Positions 939-8,206 of a DNA stretch of 8,274 nucleotides are shown in pieces (within the stretch, counting starts at the first letter, position 1; every line of letters starts with the position of its first letter). This stretch comes from a virus (Duplodnaviria > Heunggongvirae > Uroviricota > Caudoviricetes): the IMG/VR virus record IMGVR_UViG_3300014523_000046; one strand, given 5' to 3'. The notes beneath the pieces are model-generated. The model was not told the origin of the DNA. It was given only the letters and a program-made list of their open reading frames with translations, and did not search any database. The position numbers and the translations under genes were made by a program.

Positions 939-1193
939 TCACTTTCTTAAATCTAACGATAGACGGCTAACATTTAAGTATTGTGAAATATTATCAAATG
1001 TAATCATCATTGATTTACAAAAGATACATTTTGCCCCGAAAGGATTCCTGTCAGAAACATCAAAAGATGATGTTCTATACTGAGAACCATGGCAACACGG
1101 GCATCTAAAGTGAATATGGTTTGTAATATTATCTACCTCAAAGTGCCACAACATGAACAGCCGCGGGGCCTTTAGGTCCGTTCTCAATACCAA
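939..1193 (-). CDS. Candidate small Cys-rich (zinc-ribbon-like) protein, start uncertain
   Basis: ORF contains C-P-C-C ... 21 aa ... C-I-F-C (CxCC...CxxC), a pattern unusual for a random ORF, and ends 8 nt before a terminator hairpin. The codon at 1193 is TTG with AGGAAG 7 nt upstream; the first ATG is at 1154. Either start overlaps the 3' end of the cspI-like gene (stop 1138) in another frame, which lowers confidence. Confidence 0.3.
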
Positions 1194-1350
1194 ATTCGAC
1201 TTCCTGATTCTCAGTTAACGTTTTGAAATCGTTGCTCTGAATAGCTGAGAAATGGACAAACACATCTTTGCTACCATCTTTCGGCGTGATGAAACCAAAA
1301 CCTTTTTCAGGGTTAAACCATTTCACTAAACCAGTCATTTTGTTAGACAT
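1138..1350 (-). CDS. cspI: Cold-shock protein, CspA family (CspI-like, 70 aa)
   Basis: Translation [70 protein letters not shown] carries the RNP1/RNP2 cold-shock-domain motifs (KGFGFI, VFVHF). Two tandem ATGs at 1353 and 1350; the second gives the canonical MSNKMTGL N-terminus. AAAGGTAATA SD-like sequence upstream, typical of csp genes. Stop TGA 1138-1140. Confidence 0.9.
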
Positions 1351-1353
1351 CAT

Positions 1354-1713
1354 TATTACCTTTTGAAGAAGTTAGCCCTTGGGCAGAATGGTCCGAAAAA
1401 AAATATCAGAGAGAAAAACCAACAAGGAAATCTCAAGAGGTACAAATAATAAAATTATAACAATGACTGCTTCAGATAATTTTGTAACAAACCAGAACAC
1501 CATTAACGCATGATTAACCAACCATAGCAAGGATTACTTTTGTAAAGAAAAACACACGAATGAAACAATAGCTTTATTTATTAATAAAACGTGTCATTCT
1601 GTCTAATGACCTTTTATCTTACCCTTAAGATTTCAAGGATTTTGACTCATGGAAGAGTCCTTTTTATTTAAATTTCACATTCAGCGCTAAAAATAATCCG
1701 ATTTAATATTAAT
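1354..1713 (-). promoter_or_regulatory. AT-rich upstream region of the cspI-like gene (promoter plus probable long 5' UTR)
   Basis: A 360-bp non-coding AT-rich gap between the Rz stop (1714) and the csp start. CspA-family genes characteristically have long structured 5' UTRs. I did not locate an exact cold-box match by eye. Confidence 0.4.
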
Positions 1714-3618: not shown

Positions 3619-3834
3619 TTACTCTCTTCTCGCAACCTTACGCCTGTCTTCTTTAATCTTGAAATAAAGGTTTGTCAGATACGTCAGCATGCCAAATACC
3701 AGACTACCCAATACACCTATTGCCGCCCACTGTGAGGGCGTGACTTTATCGAGCAACTGTAAAAACCAGTAGCCAGCACTGCCTGCAGAGGTGCTGTAGG
3801 CGATGCCCGTTGTTAACTTATCCATGGATTTCAT
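3619..3834 (-). CDS. Class II holin, phage-21 S-like pinholin (71 aa) with dual-start motif
   Basis: Within track ORF 3619-3918, ATG at 3834 with strong SD (GGAGGTGAGGCT-ATG) gives [71 protein letters not shown]: two TM segments, a charged C-terminus, and the MKSM dual start (Met1/Met4) typical of S21. Confidence 0.9.
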
Positions 3835-3924
3835 AGCCTCACCTCCGCAGATAACGGATGGTGTACACGGTTTGGTTCGAAGAAGGAAAGAAGTTACATT
3901 AGCGTAAGGCCCGAACATCTATTC

Positions 3925-3956
3925 AAAAAGAAAAACGCCAGCAATTATTCTGGCGT
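3925..3956 (-). terminator. Intrinsic terminator downstream of the AraC-like gene
   Basis: Perfect 7-bp stem ACGCCAG/CTGGCGT (3935-3941 and 3950-3956) with an 8-nt loop; on the minus strand it is followed by TTTTTCTTTTT (plus 3925-3934). About 70 nt past the AraC stop (4025). Confidence 0.55.
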
Positions 3957-4024: not shown

Positions 4025-4738
4025 CTAAGAAAATCTTGATAAATATTGGTGCGGAGGCACACCAAAATATCCTCTAAAAACACTTACAAAATATGATGCA
4101 TTGTCATACCCGCATATTCCCGCCACCTTGCCGACAGTATGGTTACTGTAGATCAATAATCTTTGCGCCATCATCATTCGTTCTTCAAGAATTAATTTAC
4201 TAAACGATAATCCTTCGTTTTTTAATTTTCTTTTTAACAAACTCTCGCTCATATATAATCTTGAAGATATATCACAAAGTCTCCATGACGCTGAGATATC
4301 CGAGTGAATAATAGCCTTAACTTTACAACCTAAGCTATTAAGACTTCCGAACAAAAAACTTTGCACTATTTTCTCTGAAGATAAGACAGCAAGACATGCA
4401 AGTGATATTTGATTTCTAACTACATCCACGGTTTTGCTATCACAATTCAAGCATGCAACCAAGTTCCTTAACAATGAAAAATCTTCACATTCTACTATCA
4501 AGTATGACGGATAAAACCTTCTTACAGAAAAAGGTGAGAGTGTGTAGTTTTTAAAGAAATCATTAACTGTTTTCTCCTCAACATCTACGATCATTAGATG
4601 ATCTGTATTTGACGAAAAAAGATCTTTTAAATTGTATTCAATGAGGACAGCATTTCCTTTTTTAAACAAAATATCTTCTTTACCAATTCGGACAACAAAC
4701 GAGTTCAACACCAAAATGATAGAACATATGTATGGCAT
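4025..4738 (-). CDS. AraC/XylS-family transcriptional regulator (237 aa), AT-rich horizontally acquired type
   Basis: C-terminal about 100 aa carry the double helix-turn-helix of AraC/XylS proteins (...SESLLKRKLKNEGLSFSKLILEERMMMAQRLL...VGKVAGICGYDNASYFVSVFRGYFGVPPHQY). The N-terminal domain is not recognisable. The codon at 4747 is GTG and lies inside the SD; ATG at 4738 with AGGTGG 5 nt upstream is the likely start. Very low GC compared with the lysis genes. Confidence 0.85.
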   Translation of the reverse strand: MPYICSIILVLNSFVVRIGKEDILFKKGNAVLIEYNLKDLFSSNTDHLMIVDVEEKTVNDFFKNYTLSPFSVRRFYPSYLIVECEDFSLLRNLVACLNCDSKTVDVVRNQISLACLAVLSSEKIVQSFLFGSLNSLGCKVKAIIHSDISASWRLCDISSRLYMSESLLKRKLKNEGLSFSKLILEERMMMAQRLLIYSNHTVGKVAGICGYDNASYFVSVFRGYFGVPPHQYLSRFS

Positions 4739-5144
4739 ATTATCCACCTGATATCATTGGGGTTACACCAGGTAAGTATAGGTGGAAAATCAATATTCGC
4801 CAGTTCAACAATAAGGAAAATCTCATTGCATCACAACTATAAAACCATGTGTTTAACTCACAAAAAACAAATCATTAAACTAATCTGTTATATTATAATA
4901 GCTGCGTGCAATAATAATATTATATGCTCTTAATATTCACTTGAAATATCTTCATATAAAAACAGATTGAATAAAATCTTTTGGGGCTGGTATGTTTACC
5001 AACATTAAATTGCATCTCAATGTTTTCTTTAGCGTGAACAGGATTTTTATACAAACTGACACTATGGGCATCATAGCGTAGTTTTTACGATTGTAAATAT
5101 CCTGCATACAGGAACTCATCACTTTCAGATGATATCGCATACAG
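4739..5144 (-). promoter_or_regulatory. AT-rich intergenic region upstream of the AraC-like gene (probable promoter and silencing region)
   Basis: About 400 bp of strongly AT-rich non-coding sequence with many A/T tracts, between the DUF523/DUF1722 stop and the AraC start. The only ORF here (4952-5140) looks spurious. Typical of xenogeneic promoter regions; no specific hexamers assigned. Confidence 0.35.
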
Positions 5145-6104
5145 TTAATTCACCATCAGTCTTAGAGCCAGTTCTTCCGGATAGGGATCGAAGTAATTCT
5201 GTGTAAGCAAGTAATCATTAGGATACTCACCCAGATAATGCTTCAGCAGAGTCAACGGCGCAAGAAGAGGCAATGTGCCAAAGCGATAGTTAAGTATAAC
5301 CTCGCTCAACTCTTTACGCTGGCGTGTACTTAAGTAATTACTAAAATACCCCTGTATATGCATCAGCACATTCGTGTGATTTTTACGTGATGCTGGTTTT
5401 CTGAGAATCGCCATCAGATTATCACGATACACCTCAAAGTATGATTCAAGGTCCGCCCACTCGTGTATTGCAGCCACAAATGGTCCCATATCTTTATAGC
5501 CTGCCTGGCTATGCGCCAACAACTGAAGCTTATAACGACTATGAAAAGCTAATAACTCTCTTCTTGATAATTTCTCCTTGTAAAGATGATTGAGCTCATG
5601 CAAAGCAAAAACTCTTTCAATAAAATTCTCACGAAGCACTGGATCATGTAATCGCCCATCCTCTTCAACCGGTAGCCAGGAAAACTTTTCCATCAAAGTG
5701 CTCGTAAATAGTCCCACTCCATCTTTACGACCTCGATTACCATTTTCATCATAGACACGCACGCGCTCCATGCCACAGCTGGGAGATTTAGCACAAACCA
5801 CAAACCCCGATACATCCTTTAATTTGTCCATATAAGAACGACTAAACTCTGTCATTCTCTCTGTCACATCCTCATTCTGGTCGTGGCTGAAACACATCCG
5901 TATATTTCCTTGCTTCGAGCGCACAAGTCGTAGAGCAGGACGCGGAACTGGCAGCCCTATAGCCATTTCCGGACATACTGGTCTGAATGTTACCCATTCC
6001 ACTAATTTGTCCATTAAAAAGTCATCTCTTTTGTGACCACCATCAAAACGAACAGCAGAACCGCCCAAACAACCGCTGATCCCAATCACAGGTTTTTTTA
6101 TCAT
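5145..6104 (-). CDS. DUF523 (TudS-like Fe-S) + DUF1722 (YbgA-like) fusion protein (319 aa)
   Basis: N-terminus MIKKPVIGISGCLGGSAVRFDGGH with Cys at about 12, 44 and 104 (SPSCG) matches the three-Cys [4Fe-4S] ligand pattern of DUF523/TudS-type proteins. The C-terminal half is helical and YbgA/DUF1722-like. ATG at 6104 preceded by AAGGGGGAGGAA. Stop TAA 5145-5147. Confidence 0.8.
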   Translation of the reverse strand: MIKKPVIGISGCLGGSAVRFDGGHKRDDFLMDKLVEWVTFRPVCPEMAIGLPVPRPALRLVRSKQGNIRMCFSHDQNEDVTERMTEFSRSYMDKLKDVSGFVVCAKSPSCGMERVRVYDENGNRGRKDGVGLFTSTLMEKFSWLPVEEDGRLHDPVLRENFIERVFALHELNHLYKEKLSRRELLAFHSRYKLQLLAHSQAGYKDMGPFVAAIHEWADLESYFEVYRDNLMAILRKPASRKNHTNVLMHIQGYFSNYLSTRQRKELSEVILNYRFGTLPLLAPLTLLKHYLGEYPNDYLLTQNYFDPYPEELALRLMVN

Positions 6105-6296
6105 TTCCTCCCCCTTGACTAATTCATTAACACATAAACTTTGTAGTGCACGGACTAAATTGCCTTTCTGGCTTCATCACTGACAATTTTTCTGTTATTG
6201 ACTATTCCTAATATAGTAGGAAAGTTCTTTAAGTGATCGGTCGTACTCATCTATCTTTCATACTTACTCTCAACTATCAAAAGTACAGGATTTATT

Positions 6297-6821
6297 ATGA
6301 AGTTATGGCCTGTGTTGACTGGCATTGCACTCTCTTTCACTCTTATAGCATGTAAGGCCCCGACACCACCTAAAGGTGTGCAGCCGATTACAAATTTTGA
6401 CGCCAACCGCTACCTCGGAAAATGGTATGAAATAGCTCGCCTCGAGAACTGGTTCGAACGTGGTCTGGAACAGGTCAGCGCTACTTATGAAAAACGGAAC
6501 GACGGAGGGATTCGCGTACTTAACCGTGGATACGATCCAACGAAAAACAAATGGAGCGAGAGCGAAGGTAAAGCATACTTTACTGGAGATACTAAAACTG
6601 CAGCGTTGAAAGTTTCGTTTTTTGGCCCCTTCTATGGTGGCTATAATGTAATCAAGCTGGATGATGAGTATAAGTATGCTCTTGTCAGTGGTCCGAACAG
6701 AGAATACCTATGGATTCTGGCAAGGACCCAAACTATTCCAGATAATGTAAAAGCAGACTATGTGCGTACCGCTCAAAAGTTGGGATTCAATGTCAATGAA
6801 CTATTATGGGTTAAACAATAA
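6297..6821 (+). CDS. Bacterial lipocalin Blc-like outer-membrane lipoprotein (174 aa)
   Basis: Signal peptide with lipobox L-I-A-C (MKLWPVLTGIALSFTLIACKAPTPPKG) and lipocalin core motifs shared with Blc (NFDANRYLGKWYEIAR, KVSFFGPFYGGYNVI, YLWILAR). SD AGGA 6 nt before the ATG. Plus strand, opposite to the surrounding phage genes. Confidence 0.9.
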   Translation: MKLWPVLTGIALSFTLIACKAPTPPKGVQPITNFDANRYLGKWYEIARLENWFERGLEQVSATYEKRNDGGIRVLNRGYDPTKNKWSESEGKAYFTGDTKTAALKVSFFGPFYGGYNVIKLDDEYKYALVSGPNREYLWILARTQTIPDNVKADYVRTAQKLGFNVNELLWVKQ

Positions 6822-6849
6822 AATCCCCACCCGAAATGATACTTATTAG

Positions 6850-6877
6850 AAAAAAAACCAGCCTTTGGGGAGGCTGG
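6850..6877 (-). terminator. Intrinsic terminator downstream of Q (tR'-like); may also serve the convergent blc-like gene
   Basis: Perfect 7-bp stem CCAGCCT/AGGCTGG (6858-6864 and 6871-6877) with a 6-nt loop; on the minus strand it is followed by an 8-T run (plus A-run 6850-6857). Located about 100 nt downstream of the Q stop and 37 nt after the blc-like stop. Confidence 0.65.
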
Positions 6878-6879
6878 CT

Positions 6880-6977
6880 AAATCAGGAAACAAGCTGTTA
6901 TATGATAATAACTACGTTGCGATTCCAACATTTAAAATGTTAGACTAATGAAAATCAGACAGCAACTTTTCCTTTAA
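6880..6977 (-). promoter_or_regulatory. Candidate late promoter / Q-utilisation region between Q and the terminator
   Basis: By analogy with lambdoid pR'-qut-tR' organisation. Minus-strand hexamers TTGCTG (6965-6960) and TAACAT (6942-6937) with 17-bp spacing are one possible -35/-10 pair, which would predict a short transcript of about 80 nt. The assignment is speculative. Confidence 0.3.
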
Positions 6978-7355
6978 TTATTTCGAACAATCAGCATCCA
7001 TCTCCAATCGGAGATCCAACACCATCAGCATGCCCTCCACTACGCCCTCAGCTTTCTGGAGCATCCTGCCAACCCAACAATCAGATCGCCCATGCTTACG
7101 TGCAAGCGCCATAAAAGTCATGCCGCCGACATAATAGTCCACCAATAAATCATGTAAATCGCTGTTGTTTTTTTTCAGGCGAGCCATACATTCACAAATG
7201 ATCATCGCGTCATCGTCACAGCATTGCGGACGAGATCTTACTTTTGAAGGAATTAATCCCTTAAAACCGGCGGCAATGGACGACCAGGTCACATCTTCAT
7301 GATTATTAGCCGCCCATGCCCCCCAACGCTCAAGAACCATCTGAATATCACGCAT
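6978..7355 (-). CDS. Phage antitermination protein Q, short QuuD-like type (125 aa)
   Basis: Translation from ATG 7355 ([26 protein letters not shown]...[32 protein letters not shown]) matches my recollection of the approximately 127-aa Q-like antiterminators of DLP12-type prophages (Phage_antitermQ family). The track start at 7370 is a TTG; ATG 7355 has GGAG 8 nt upstream. Followed by a terminator, as expected for Q. Confidence 0.8.
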
Positions 7356-7372
7356 CAACTTACTCCACAAAA

Positions 7373-8206
7373 TTAGGCCAGCACACCAATTGCCAGCGCG
7401 CGATCGATAAATCGAAAAATCAGCTCCAGTTGGGAGCCATACTTCTCTTCAAATGCCACGGTATCCGTATGCAACTCGTCGTGATGCTTTCTGCACAAAG
7501 GCAACACAAAGAGATCATGTGCTTTGGTTCCCATTCCGCCCTGCCCGTGACCAATCAGATGATGCGGATCGTCGGCTGGCATACCGCAGCAAGCACACGG
7601 CTGTGTCTTAACCCAGCGTGTGTATTTCTCCTTAACCCAACGGTGACGTTTAGGCAGCTTCATGAAAGATTCCGGAGACTCTGGATCAACGGTGATGCTT
7701 ACCACCGTCTTTTCCTGTGATGGGTTTTGTTGCTGGTGGGCGTGAGGCAACGGTGCAAGATTTTTTGTGCGCTGTTTCAATATGCTGGTGGCGGTCTGCT
7801 CTCCCGGTACGATGTCGCTTTCGCGGTACACCGAGCAGTTTTTTTCCGCTGGTAATCCCAGCGAGCGACGTAATACCGCTTCCGGTAGCGCGTCCGCCAC
7901 CTGATTGCGGACCGCCCACCAGGATAATTCAGCCAGAGATAATTCACGCTCCTGCGTACCGCTTATTGTGTGACCGATGACGTCAATCATCCATGCTGAC
8001 AGGTTTTGATGAGCAAGTTGCTCGAGTGATTCGGATGTCTGGTCACGCAGCTGGTTGTCGCAGTGCCAGCACAACACCATTGCGCCGGTACCATAACGGT
8101 GAATAACGGTTTCGCTGTGATGATAATCGCCGAGTGGCCACTGGCAGGATTTAATATGGCGCAACAGCCAGTCAGACAATGCACCAGCACTGATCTTACC
8201 CAGCAA
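7373..8206 (-). CDS. Lambdoid nin-region protein with C-terminal Cys/His-rich DUF1364/DUF968-like (HNH-like) motif; start uncertain
   Basis: C-terminal segment ...[45 protein letters not shown] has the CxxC...HH...GTK...C..HH pattern I associate with YbcO/YdfU-type prophage proteins found upstream of Q. The track start codon (8206) is TTG with no SD; the first in-frame ATG is at 8080. Stop TAA 7373-7375, 17 nt before the Q start. Confidence 0.55.

What the first reader, a model, noticed from the sequence alone, without database searches (positions are those of the whole stretch)
6850..7355. Short Q antiterminator with a closely spaced tR'-like terminator
Q here is the approximately 125-aa type rather than the larger lambda/82-type Q, yet the lysis cassette is of the S21/Qin type, indicating a mosaic late region. 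The strong terminator only about 100 nt past the Q stop leaves room for only a very short pR' transcript and qut site, so the promoter and Q-binding site must be packed into 6880-6977.
Basis: partly seen in the sequence, partly recalled or inferred. Interest (0 to 1): 0.45.

Follow-up and report, generated by a model that had tools for sequence, protein, structure and literature searches.

The report
Prophage Q antiterminator with compact terminator
This is an ordinary late-gene switch of an E. coli lambda-like prophage: a small Q antiterminator gene of the phage 21/933W family followed about 100 bases later by its terminator. That tight spacing is normal for this family, not an oddity.

Summary
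A 125-aa Q gene lies on the minus strand (7355..6978). A strong minus-strand intrinsic terminator (stem 6879..6856, T8 to 6850) starts 98 nt past its stop.

Q belongs to the Q21/Q933W family (Pfam PF06530, E 8e-51) and is 76-82% identical to Stx-phage and DLP12 Q proteins. The tight spacing is typical. The annotated phage 21 genome fits promoter, Q-binding site, pause element and terminator into 91 nt after Q.

The terminator shares the stem and a 12-base run with the terminator I equate with the mapped tR' of Stx phages. The rest of that RNA (StxS) is not significantly similar.

The same Q-terminator-blc arrangement occurs in about 20% of complete E. coli genomes and in phage genomes deposited as complete (1H12, IdasGreatGrand).

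My best candidate for pR' is TTGCTG(6965-6960)-17-TAACAT(6942-6937), giving an RNA of about 80 nt. This is inferred, not shown.

The "mosaic because short Q plus S21 lysis" argument fails, because phage 21 itself pairs these two families.

One modest new point: this Q carries a variant putative recognition helix ([12 protein letters not shown]). That helix never co-occurs with the TTTACGWWCGTAAA palindrome found downstream of most 933W-type Q genes.

Verdict: new member of a known kind, low interest.

The parts
6978..7355 (-). Q antiterminator gene: 125 aa plus stop, ATG at 7355-7353, TAA at 6980-6978. Q21/Q933W family.
   Evidence: ORF list. Pfam PF06530 E 8e-51. Q21 structures 6p18/6jnx: E 5e-9 for the single sequence and 1.5e-10 for a profile. 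hhalign probability 97.3% over residues 6-86. RefSeq and phage records annotate the same 378-nt CDS.
7363..7366 (-). Shine-Dalgarno GGAG, 7 nt upstream of the Q ATG.
   Evidence: Read directly from the sequence.
7070..7102 (-). Codons 85-95 of [12 protein letters not shown]. This is the start of the putative recognition helix ([12 protein letters not shown]), which is the variant that distinguishes this Q from 933W/DLP12-type Q. Coordinates computed from ATG 7355.
   Evidence: Protein alignment. Helix-type versus downstream-module table. Its role as an HTH recognition helix is inferred from its position after the Q21 H5-equivalent helix (and PMC6606751).
6960..6965 (-). Candidate pR' -35 hexamer, TTGCTG (inferred).
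   Evidence: Best promoter score in the Q-terminator interval, 8.4 bits, against 8.8 for 933W pR'. Invariant in 204 related loci.
6937..6942 (-). Candidate pR' -10 hexamer, TAACAT, with a 17-bp spacer. The predicted start site is about 6931-6929 (inferred).
   Evidence: The hexamer stays TA...T in the 1H12 lineage (TAATGT). PhiR40_1, which has the same Q helix type, has TTGAGG-17-TAATGT at the same place.
6924..6944 (.). Near-perfect palindrome TCTAACATTT-T-AAATGTTGGA (15-bp perfect core 6940-6926). It overlaps the candidate -10 and start site. AATGTT at 6932-6927 is a candidate Q-binding element.
   Evidence: Inverted repeat I1, 10-nt arms, 90% complementary. AATGT[TG] follows the Q gene in 4 of 7 independent module types that share this helix. 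In 1H12 the palindrome reads as a 9-bp-spaced direct repeat of AATGTT.
6902..6910 (-). Overlapping -10-like hexamers TATTAT (6910-6905) and TATCAT (6907-6902). They are a candidate sigma-dependent pause element at about +22 to +30. TATCAT is also the -10 of the rival promoter H2.
   Evidence: Sequence. TA..AT/TA...T is kept in 200 of 204 loci. The function is inferred.
6850..6879 (-). Intrinsic terminator tR': 9-bp stem, 6-nt loop, T8.
   Evidence: The stem is invariant in all related loci. It shares GCCAGCCTCCCC...GGCTGG plus the T run with the 933W terminator at L108 1430-1458. By my coordinate arithmetic that site is the StxS 3' end, mapped by Term-seq in strain Sakai (PMC7547250).
3925..3956 (-). 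Second intrinsic terminator, just upstream of the S21-type holin. Q-modified polymerase would have to read through it to express the lysis genes.
   Evidence: Terminator scan.

Best explanation
This is the late-gene switch of a lambdoid E. coli prophage. Q (125 aa, Q21/Q933W family) is made from the early rightward transcript.

A constitutive late promoter lies just downstream of Q. The best candidate is TTGCTG(6965-6960)-17-TAACAT(6942-6937), with a start near 6931-6929. In the lysogen its transcript would stop at tR' (6879-6850), giving a short RNA of about 80 nt.

When Q is present it would bind a site in or next to the promoter. The candidate site is the AATGTT/palindrome element at 6944-6924. 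Q would load onto RNA polymerase held at a sigma-dependent pause, for which TATTAT at 6910-6905 is the candidate. By analogy with the Q21 structures, Q then forms a nozzle on the RNA exit channel that prevents terminator hairpins from forming.

The modified polymerase reads through tR', runs antisense across blc, continues through the ybgA-like and AraC-type genes, and passes a second terminator at 3956-3925. It then reaches the S21-type holin, the endolysin and Rz.

What is shown: the identity of Q, the terminator, their conservation, and the gene order. What is inferred: the promoter, the Q-binding site, the pause element and the antitermination itself.
For: Family. PF06530 at E 8e-51. Homology to the solved Q21. 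Yin et al. name PF06530 the Q21/Q933W family. Q is 76-82% identical to 933W and DLP12 Q and 92-95% to PhiR40_1 and 1H12 Q.

Terminator.. Its stem, part of its loop and its T run match the 933W terminator at L108 1430-1458. That site lies 258 nt from the predicted pR' start, which is the distance Sy et al. report for the Term-seq 3' end of the pR' transcript in Sakai (PMC7547250). The full alignment scores 68 against 28 +/- 5 for random sequence, with 0 of 500 reaching it.

Compactness is the family norm. In phage 21 the Q stop is at 1932, the -35 at 1939, the QBE at 1947-1962, the start site at 1974 and the terminator runs to 2023.

In genomes deposited as complete phages. The same Q-tR'-blc-ybgA-AraC-holin order is present in 1H12 (93% DNA identity) and IdasGreatGrand (96%). 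It is also in 1078 of 5426 complete E. coli genomes, and 952 hold at least 80% of the stretch from Q to the holin.

Promoter. H1 is the top-scoring site in the interval, at 8.4 bits (933W pR' 8.8, PhiR40_1 9.3). Its -35 is invariant in 204 loci. It keeps 6.8 bits in the 1H12 lineage, whereas the rival H2 drops to 0.24. PhiR40_1 has the same Q helix type and only about 85 nt of spacer, and it carries TTGAGG-17-TAATGT followed at once by a terminator.
Against: No transcript data were available, so the start site, the pause and the Q-binding site are predictions.

H1 is a moderate promoter: its -35 matches 3 of 6 positions, the simple consensus scan missed it, and sites scoring 8 bits or more occur about 2.5 times per kb of this window.

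The candidate pause element sits at about +22 to +27. From memory, the characterised ones lie nearer the start: lambda at +1 to +6, and phage 82 at about +10 to +15. The phage 21 record annotates its element at +2 to +8.

The AATGT[TG] motif is present in only 4 of 7 independent module types that share this Q helix, and also in 3 of about 20 modules of the other helix type.

The C-terminal third of Q, which contains the putative recognition helix, could not be aligned to Q21 by sequence or by profile. A single-sequence structure model was unusable (pLDDT 43).
Confidence: 0.8

Rival explanations
1. The late promoter is the downstream candidate H2: TTGGAA(6928-6923)-15-TATCAT(6907-6902), with a start near 6895. 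It would give an RNA of about 46 nt, and the palindrome would lie upstream of its -35.
For: It is the second-best score in the interval, 7.2 bits. The transcript length would match phage 21 (about 50 nt) and the first terminator of 933W (+49). By eye, TATCAT-ATAACAG resembles TATCAT-G-ATAAGAG at the 933W pR' -10 and start, and TAATAT-ATAACAG in DLP12.
Against: The 15-bp spacer is poor. In the 1H12 lineage both hexamers are degraded (TTAGAA-15-GATCAT, 0.24 bits). No -10-like pause element lies downstream of that start. The local alignment to the 933W pR' region scores 26, below the random mean of about 30.
Confidence: 0.12
2. The hairpin is mainly the terminator of the convergent blc gene, or a bidirectional terminator, and only by accident looks like tR'.
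For: blc (6297-6821, plus strand) ends 35 nt before the hairpin, and I saw no other terminator-like hairpin after it on reading that stretch. All 204 related loci in my set carry blc immediately after the hairpin.
Against: The T8 run is on the Q strand only. On the blc strand the stem is followed by CTAAATC. The matching terminator in 933W sits downstream of Q with no blc nearby, and similarity between the two ends right after the T run. So the hairpin belongs to the Q side.
Confidence: 0.05
3. The prophage copy is a decayed remnant, and the Q/terminator pair no longer controls anything.
For: The window comes from a chromosome. Relatives in other genomes carry IS insertions in or near this region.
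Against: Q is intact, and more than 20 IMG/VR contigs encode a 100% identical protein. The interval is 93-96% identical to those in two genomes deposited as complete phages. Holin, endolysin and Rz are intact in the window.
Confidence: 0.03

Closest known systems
Phage 21 Q / pR'21 / tR'21 (structures 6P18, 6JNX)
   Same: Same Pfam family (PF06530), and homology is detectable over residues 6-90. Q lies directly upstream of a compact promoter-terminator unit, with the terminator within about 100 nt of the Q stop. The lysis cassette has an S21-type holin.
   Different: Only about 33% identical over the aligned part. Q21 is 162 aa and has a long loop between its two DNA-binding helices. This Q is 125 aa, and its C-terminal third does not align. 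The Q21 binding site (ATTGAGCA AATGAGCA) is absent here. In phage 21 tRNA genes follow tR'; here an antisense blc follows it.
Q933W / pR' / StxS / tR' of Stx phages (933W, Sakai Sp5 and Sp15)
   Same: Q is 76-82% identical. The terminator has the same stem and 12 identical bases (GCCAGCCTCCCC). As in Stx phages, accessory genes lie between tR' and the lysis genes, and a short terminated pR' RNA is expected.
   Different: 933W has the TTTACGATCGTAAA palindrome at its -35, a first terminator at +49, and tR' at +258. The window has none of the first two, and its terminator sits about 80 nt from the predicted start. Upstream of the terminator the similarity to StxS is not above chance (31 against 27.6 +/- 5.7). 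The rpoS-pairing core GUAACGAA reads GCAACGUA here. The putative recognition helix differs: CSDTCIGKRLHK in 933W against [12 protein letters not shown] here.
DLP12 quuD (qsr') region, and phages mEp332 and 2G7b
   Same: Q is 82% identical and 127 aa long. An accessory gene (the nmpC porin) lies antisense immediately after the Q-proximal regulatory region, as blc does here.
   Different: DNA similarity stops about 18 nt before the Q stop, and the downstream regulatory region is unrelated. The DLP12 Q helix is of the 933W type.
Lambda Q / pR' / 6S RNA / tR'
   Same: Same logic: a constitutive promoter, a promoter-proximal pause, and a terminator that Q-modified polymerase overrides.
   Different: Unrelated protein family (PF03589, 207 aa). 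From memory, the lambda terminated transcript is 194 nt.

Membership tests
Q21/Q933W antiterminator family (Pfam PF06530) | The protein matches the family profile above the curated threshold. | tested here: met
   171.4 bits against a cut-off of 26, E 8e-51, profile positions 1-118 of 118.
Q21/Q933W antiterminator family (Pfam PF06530) | Homology to the structurally characterised member, Q21. | tested here: met
   phmmer E 5e-9, profile E 1.5e-10, hhalign 97.3%. The match covers only residues 6-90.
Q21/Q933W antiterminator family (Pfam PF06530) | The gene sits at the end of the early-right (nin) region, upstream of the lysis genes. | tested here: met
   DUF968/ydfU lies upstream. Holin, lysozyme and Rz lie downstream on the same strand. 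The order is the same in phages 1H12 and IdasGreatGrand.
Q21/Q933W antiterminator family (Pfam PF06530) | An intrinsic terminator lies shortly downstream of Q on the same strand. | tested here: met
   Stem 6879-6856 plus T8, -14.2 kcal/mol, z -4.1. It matches the 933W terminator at L108 1430-1458.
Q21/Q933W antiterminator family (Pfam PF06530) | A sigma-70 late promoter lies between Q and the terminator. | tested here: inconclusive
   The best candidate scores 8.4 bits, which is comparable to 933W pR', and it is conserved. Sites of this strength are not rare by chance, and there are no transcript data.
Q21/Q933W antiterminator family (Pfam PF06530) | A Q-binding element (two subsites in Q21) and a -10-like pause element at fixed spacing. 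| tested here: inconclusive
   Candidates exist: the AATGTT/palindrome at 6944-6924, and TATTAT at 6910-6905, 15 bp further on. The motif is shared by only 4 of 7 module types, and the pause-element position is not conserved between modules.
Q21/Q933W antiterminator family (Pfam PF06530) | Q-dependent read-through of the terminator. | not testable with these tools
   This needs in vitro transcription or reporter assays.
StxS small RNA (terminated pR' transcript of Stx phages) | Sequence similarity to StxS beyond the terminator. | tested here: not met
   With the terminator removed the best local score is 31, against 27.6 +/- 5.7 for random sequence, and 152 of 500 random sequences do as well. 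No Rfam family reaches its threshold here.
StxS small RNA (terminated pR' transcript of Stx phages) | The rpoS-activating seed is conserved. StxS position A193 lies in GUAACGAA. | tested here: not met
   The aligned window sequence is GCAACGUA, with 2 of the 8 core bases changed (alignment). The seed position comes from the mutant names in PMC7547250, from my own coordinate arithmetic, and from my memory of the DsrA-rpoS pairing.
StxS small RNA (terminated pR' transcript of Stx phages) | A short RNA between pR' and tR' that ends at the matching terminator. | tested here: inconclusive
   The terminator match is clear. The existence and 5' end of an RNA here are only predicted.

The most novel reading that the evidence does not exclude
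This Q, together with those of 1H12 and PhiR40_1, is a specificity variant of the Q933W subfamily. Its changed recognition helix (RSDCW[VI]GR[ML]LQK) would recognise a different Q-binding site, containing AATGT, that overlaps the -10 and start site of pR'. It would load at an unusually distal sigma-dependent pause (about +22 to +27). The constitutive terminated RNA of about 80 nt (a 5' stem-loop, a U-rich linker and a U8 terminator) could act as a host-directed small RNA, as StxS does in Stx phages.
Probability: 0.2. Interest if true: 0.45.

Novelty: new member of a known kind. Interest (0 to 1): 0.2.

Why it matters
It matters little in itself. It is a correctly spotted but standard Q-pR'-tR' late switch of the phage 21/933W type. 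It is already annotated as "antiterminator Q" in RefSeq and in phage records, and it is present in about a fifth of complete E. coli genomes.

Two points have modest value.
- The comparison gives a natural data set for how Q proteins change DNA specificity. The Q core is conserved while the helix variant and the downstream regulatory module change together.
- Because this module is so common in E. coli, a constitutive terminated pR' RNA from it would be a widespread prophage small RNA candidate. It is not a StxS copy.

Tried and rejected
1. StxS homology. A local alignment of 6954-6850 to the 3' part of StxS in 933W looked convincing (68 against 28 +/- 5). After removing the terminator it fell to chance level, so I claim only that the terminators are related.

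2. Rfam. Nothing at this locus reaches a gathering score. The weak sub-threshold hits (30.5 and 25.7 bits) rest largely on the terminator hairpin.

3. Downstream promoter H2, chosen for its resemblance to the 933W pR' -10 and start. I rejected it as the first choice because it collapses in the 1H12 lineage and the alignment is not significant.

4. A promoter overlapping the Q stop (TGGAGA-18-AATAAT). It scores lower, at 6.3 bits, and I did not pursue it.

5. A shared Q-binding motif. AATGT[TG] is in 4 of 7 module types that share this helix. That is suggestive, not proven.

6. A conserved pause-element spacing across modules. None was found.

7. Aligning the C-terminal helix of Q to the Q21 DNA-contact residues by phmmer, profile and hhalign. 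All alignments stop at about residue 86-90.

8. A single-sequence AlphaFold model. Mean pLDDT was 43, so I did not use it.

9. An RNA hairpin across the palindrome, which is kept through G-U pairs in 1H12. I noted it but did not pursue it, because it would not be part of a transcript starting at H1.

10. A literature search for quuD returned nothing.

Full report
**Observation**

The window is the late-control and lysis region of a lambdoid E. coli prophage, read on the minus strand.
- DUF968/ydfU: 8206-7373
- Q: 7355-6978
- A 156-nt gap
- blc lipocalin on the opposite strand: 6297-6821
- A YbgA-like gene: 6104-5145
- An AraC-type regulator: 4747-4025
- An S21-type holin: within 3918-3619
- DUF1327, lysozyme and Rz
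- A cold-shock gene

The Q ORF listed from TTG 7370 most likely starts at ATG 7355, which has GGAG 7 nt upstream. That gives the 125 aa annotated in RefSeq and in phage records.

It has a 9-bp stem at 6879-6856, a 6-nt loop and a T8 run to 6850. It folds at -14.2 kcal/mol, z = -4.1. It is the top-listed terminator-like site in the window. It begins 98 nt after the Q stop.

**What Q is**

Q matches Pfam PF06530 end to end (E 8e-51). It is homologous to the solved Q of phage 21 (E 5e-9; profile E 1.5e-10; hhalign 97.3%). Yin, Kaelber and Ebright call PF06530 the Q21/Q933W family, one of three unrelated Q families.

Identity to related Q proteins:
- 1H12: 95%
- PhiR40_1: 92%
- DLP12 QuuD: 82%
- 933W Q: 76%, and 79-83% to other Stx-phage Q proteins
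- Q21: about a third, over residues 8-90

Pairing this Q with an S21-type cassette therefore does not show mosaicism.

**Is the tight spacing unusual?**

No. The curated phage 21 genome annotates these features:
- Q stop at 1932
- pR' -35 at 1939-1944
- Q-binding element at 1947-1962
- -10 at 1962-1967
- Start site at 1974
- Sigma-dependent pause element at 1975-1981
- Terminator running to 2023

Everything fits within 91 nt of the stop, and the transcript is about 50 nt. In 933W the annotated pR' overlaps the end of Q, and a first terminator ends 70 nt after the stop. The window has 127 nt from stop to the end of the T run, which is generous for this family.

**The terminator is related to a known tR'**

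The window sequence TTTAGCCAGCCTCCCCAAAGGCTGG-T8 matches TTTGCCAGCCTCCCCCAGTGGCTGGC-T6 in 933W (L108 1430-1458). This 933W site lies 258 nt from the predicted pR' start. Sy et al. mapped the 3' end of the pR' transcript StxS by Term-seq, in strain Sakai, at exactly that distance (PMC7547250). Equating the two sites is my own coordinate arithmetic.

Similarity between the window and 933W ends directly after the T run, and 933W has no blc. So the terminator belongs to the Q side, not to blc.

I first thought the whole 105 nt was a StxS homologue. With the terminator removed, the alignment is at chance level (31 against 27.6 +/- 5.7). The rpoS-pairing core GUAACGAA is changed at two of eight positions. 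I therefore claim only that the terminators are related.

**The module occurs in complete phage genomes and is common**

The stretch 6780-7400 is 100% identical in many E. coli chromosomes, and 1078 of 5426 complete genomes hold at least 80% of it. It is 96% identical in phage IdasGreatGrand and 93% identical in 1H12 and about ten related deposited phages. All of these keep the order Q, terminator, blc (antisense), ybgA, AraC, holin.

Late transcription in those phages must therefore cross about 3 kb of accessory genes, including one in antisense. It must also pass a second terminator just before the holin (3956-3925). This resembles the way Stx phages carry tRNA and stx genes between tR' and the lysis genes.

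**Where pR' is (inferred)**

A position-weight scan of 7060-6840 gave three candidates.
- H1: TTGCTG(6965-6960)-17-TAACAT(6942-6937), 8.4 bits
- H2: TTGGAA(6928-6923)-15-TATCAT(6907-6902), 7.2 bits
- A site overlapping the Q stop, 6.3 bits

On the same scale 933W pR' scores 8.8, PhiR40_1 scores 9.3, phage 21 scores 11.0 and lambda scores 12.1.

Across 204 related loci the H1 -35 is invariant and its -10 stays TA...T. In the 1H12 lineage H1 keeps 6.8 bits, whereas H2 falls to 0.24. PhiR40_1 has the same Q helix type and a much shorter spacer. It carries TTGAGG-17-TAATGT followed at once by a terminator.

I therefore favour H1, with a start near 6931-6929 and an RNA of about 80 nt. That RNA is predicted to fold into a 5' stem-loop, a U-rich linker and the terminator. 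Sites scoring 8 bits or more occur about 2.5 times per kb in this window, so this is a reasoned choice and not a demonstration.

**Q-binding site and pause element (speculative)**

Among relatives, the Q core is conserved up to ...LEMD, and everything 3' of it is exchanged as modules.

Q proteins with the helix SD[GT]xIGK[KR]LQK (933W and homologues in Citrobacter, Pantoea, Trabulsiella, Providencia and Xenorhabdus) are followed by the palindrome TTTACGWWCGTAAA in 15 of about 20 module types. In 933W that palindrome is at the pR' -35.

Q proteins with SDCW[VI]GR[ML]LQK (this window, 1H12, PhiR40_1) never have the palindrome. Four of seven independent module types with this helix instead share TTAA(A)TGT.

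In the window this motif forms a 15-bp perfect palindrome at 6940-6926. In 1H12 the same element reads as two AATGTT copies 9 bp apart, which recalls the two 8-bp direct subsites of Q21.

A -10-like TATTAT at 6910-6905 lies 15 bp downstream of it. In phage 21 the gap between the Q-binding element and the pause element is 12 bp.

Three things weaken this picture:
- The position of the pause element is not conserved between modules.
- The motif is absent from three module types.
- The helix could not be aligned to the Q21 DNA-contact residues, and the single-sequence model was unusable.

**Rivals**

- H2 as the promoter: 0.12.
- The hairpin as blc's terminator: 0.05. The T run is on the wrong strand for this, and the 933W counterpart has no blc.
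- A dead remnant: 0.03. Q and the lysis genes are intact, and the interval is 93-96% identical to that of two deposited phages.

**Verdict**

This is a standard Q-pR'-tR' switch of the Q21/Q933W family. It is already annotated as Q in public records. Its compactness is typical of the family, and its terminator is related to the tR' of Stx phages.

Novelty: new member of a known kind. Interest: 0.2. The helix-versus-module covariation, and the possibility of a widespread terminated pR' RNA of about 80 nt, are the only points that might repay an experiment.

Noticed in passing
window 1092-1508 (-): Rfam cspA thermoregulator (RF01766), 112.8 bits against a gathering score of 78. It covers the 5' leader and coding region of the prophage cold-shock gene at 1138-1353.
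   Followed up: no
window 4025-6821: A block of accessory genes sits between tR' and the holin: blc lipocalin (plus strand, antisense to late transcription), a YbgA-like 2-thiouracil-desulfurase/DUF1722 protein, and an AraC-type regulator. The same block is in phages 1H12 and IdasGreatGrand. DLP12-type relatives instead carry an antisense porin (nmpC) at the same place.
   Followed up: partly
window 3925-3956 (-): A second good intrinsic terminator (ACGCCAG...CTGGCGT plus a T run) lies after the AraC gene and about 90 nt upstream of the probable holin start. The late transcript would need Q-modified polymerase to pass it.
   Followed up: no
window 3619-3918 (-): The holin ORF is listed as 99 aa, but the Pfam S21-holin match starts at residue 33. 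An MKSMDK motif at residue 29 looks like the S21 dual start, so the real gene probably starts at about 3834 (71 aa).
   Followed up: no
Q residues 88-101 (window about 7053-7094, -), compared with loci L001, L003, L088-L111 and L112-L303: The putative recognition helix of Q comes in two forms that track the downstream regulatory module. SD[GT]xIGK[KR]LQK goes with the palindrome TTTACGWWCGTAAA (15 of about 20 module types). SDCW[VI]GR[ML]LQK never does. DLP12-type Q proteins have the first helix but only a degenerate TTTAC-TAAAA.
   Followed up: partly
L088-L107 and L108 1203-1218: In 933W-type modules a hairpin at about +3 to +20 of the pR' transcript appears, on reading the sequences, to be kept by compensatory changes (GTGG...CCAC in some, GTGAC...GTCAC in others). 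TGWTAAGAG across the start site is also strongly conserved. Neither was examined further.
   Followed up: no
L037 1935 onward, and L130 (equivalent to window about 6922): In one IMG/VR contig the interval is interrupted right after TTGGAAT by an inserted element that encodes a transposase-like protein (MDEKQLQALANELAKNLKTPEDL...). I guess IS256 family from memory.
   Followed up: no
L232 (E. coli Combat11I9): The identical Q-tR'-blc-ybgA unit is here joined through an IS1 to an essD/rrrD/rzpD lysis cassette with iss. The AraC gene is missing and the lysis cassette differs from the window's. This is direct evidence of module shuffling downstream of the Q unit.
   Followed up: no
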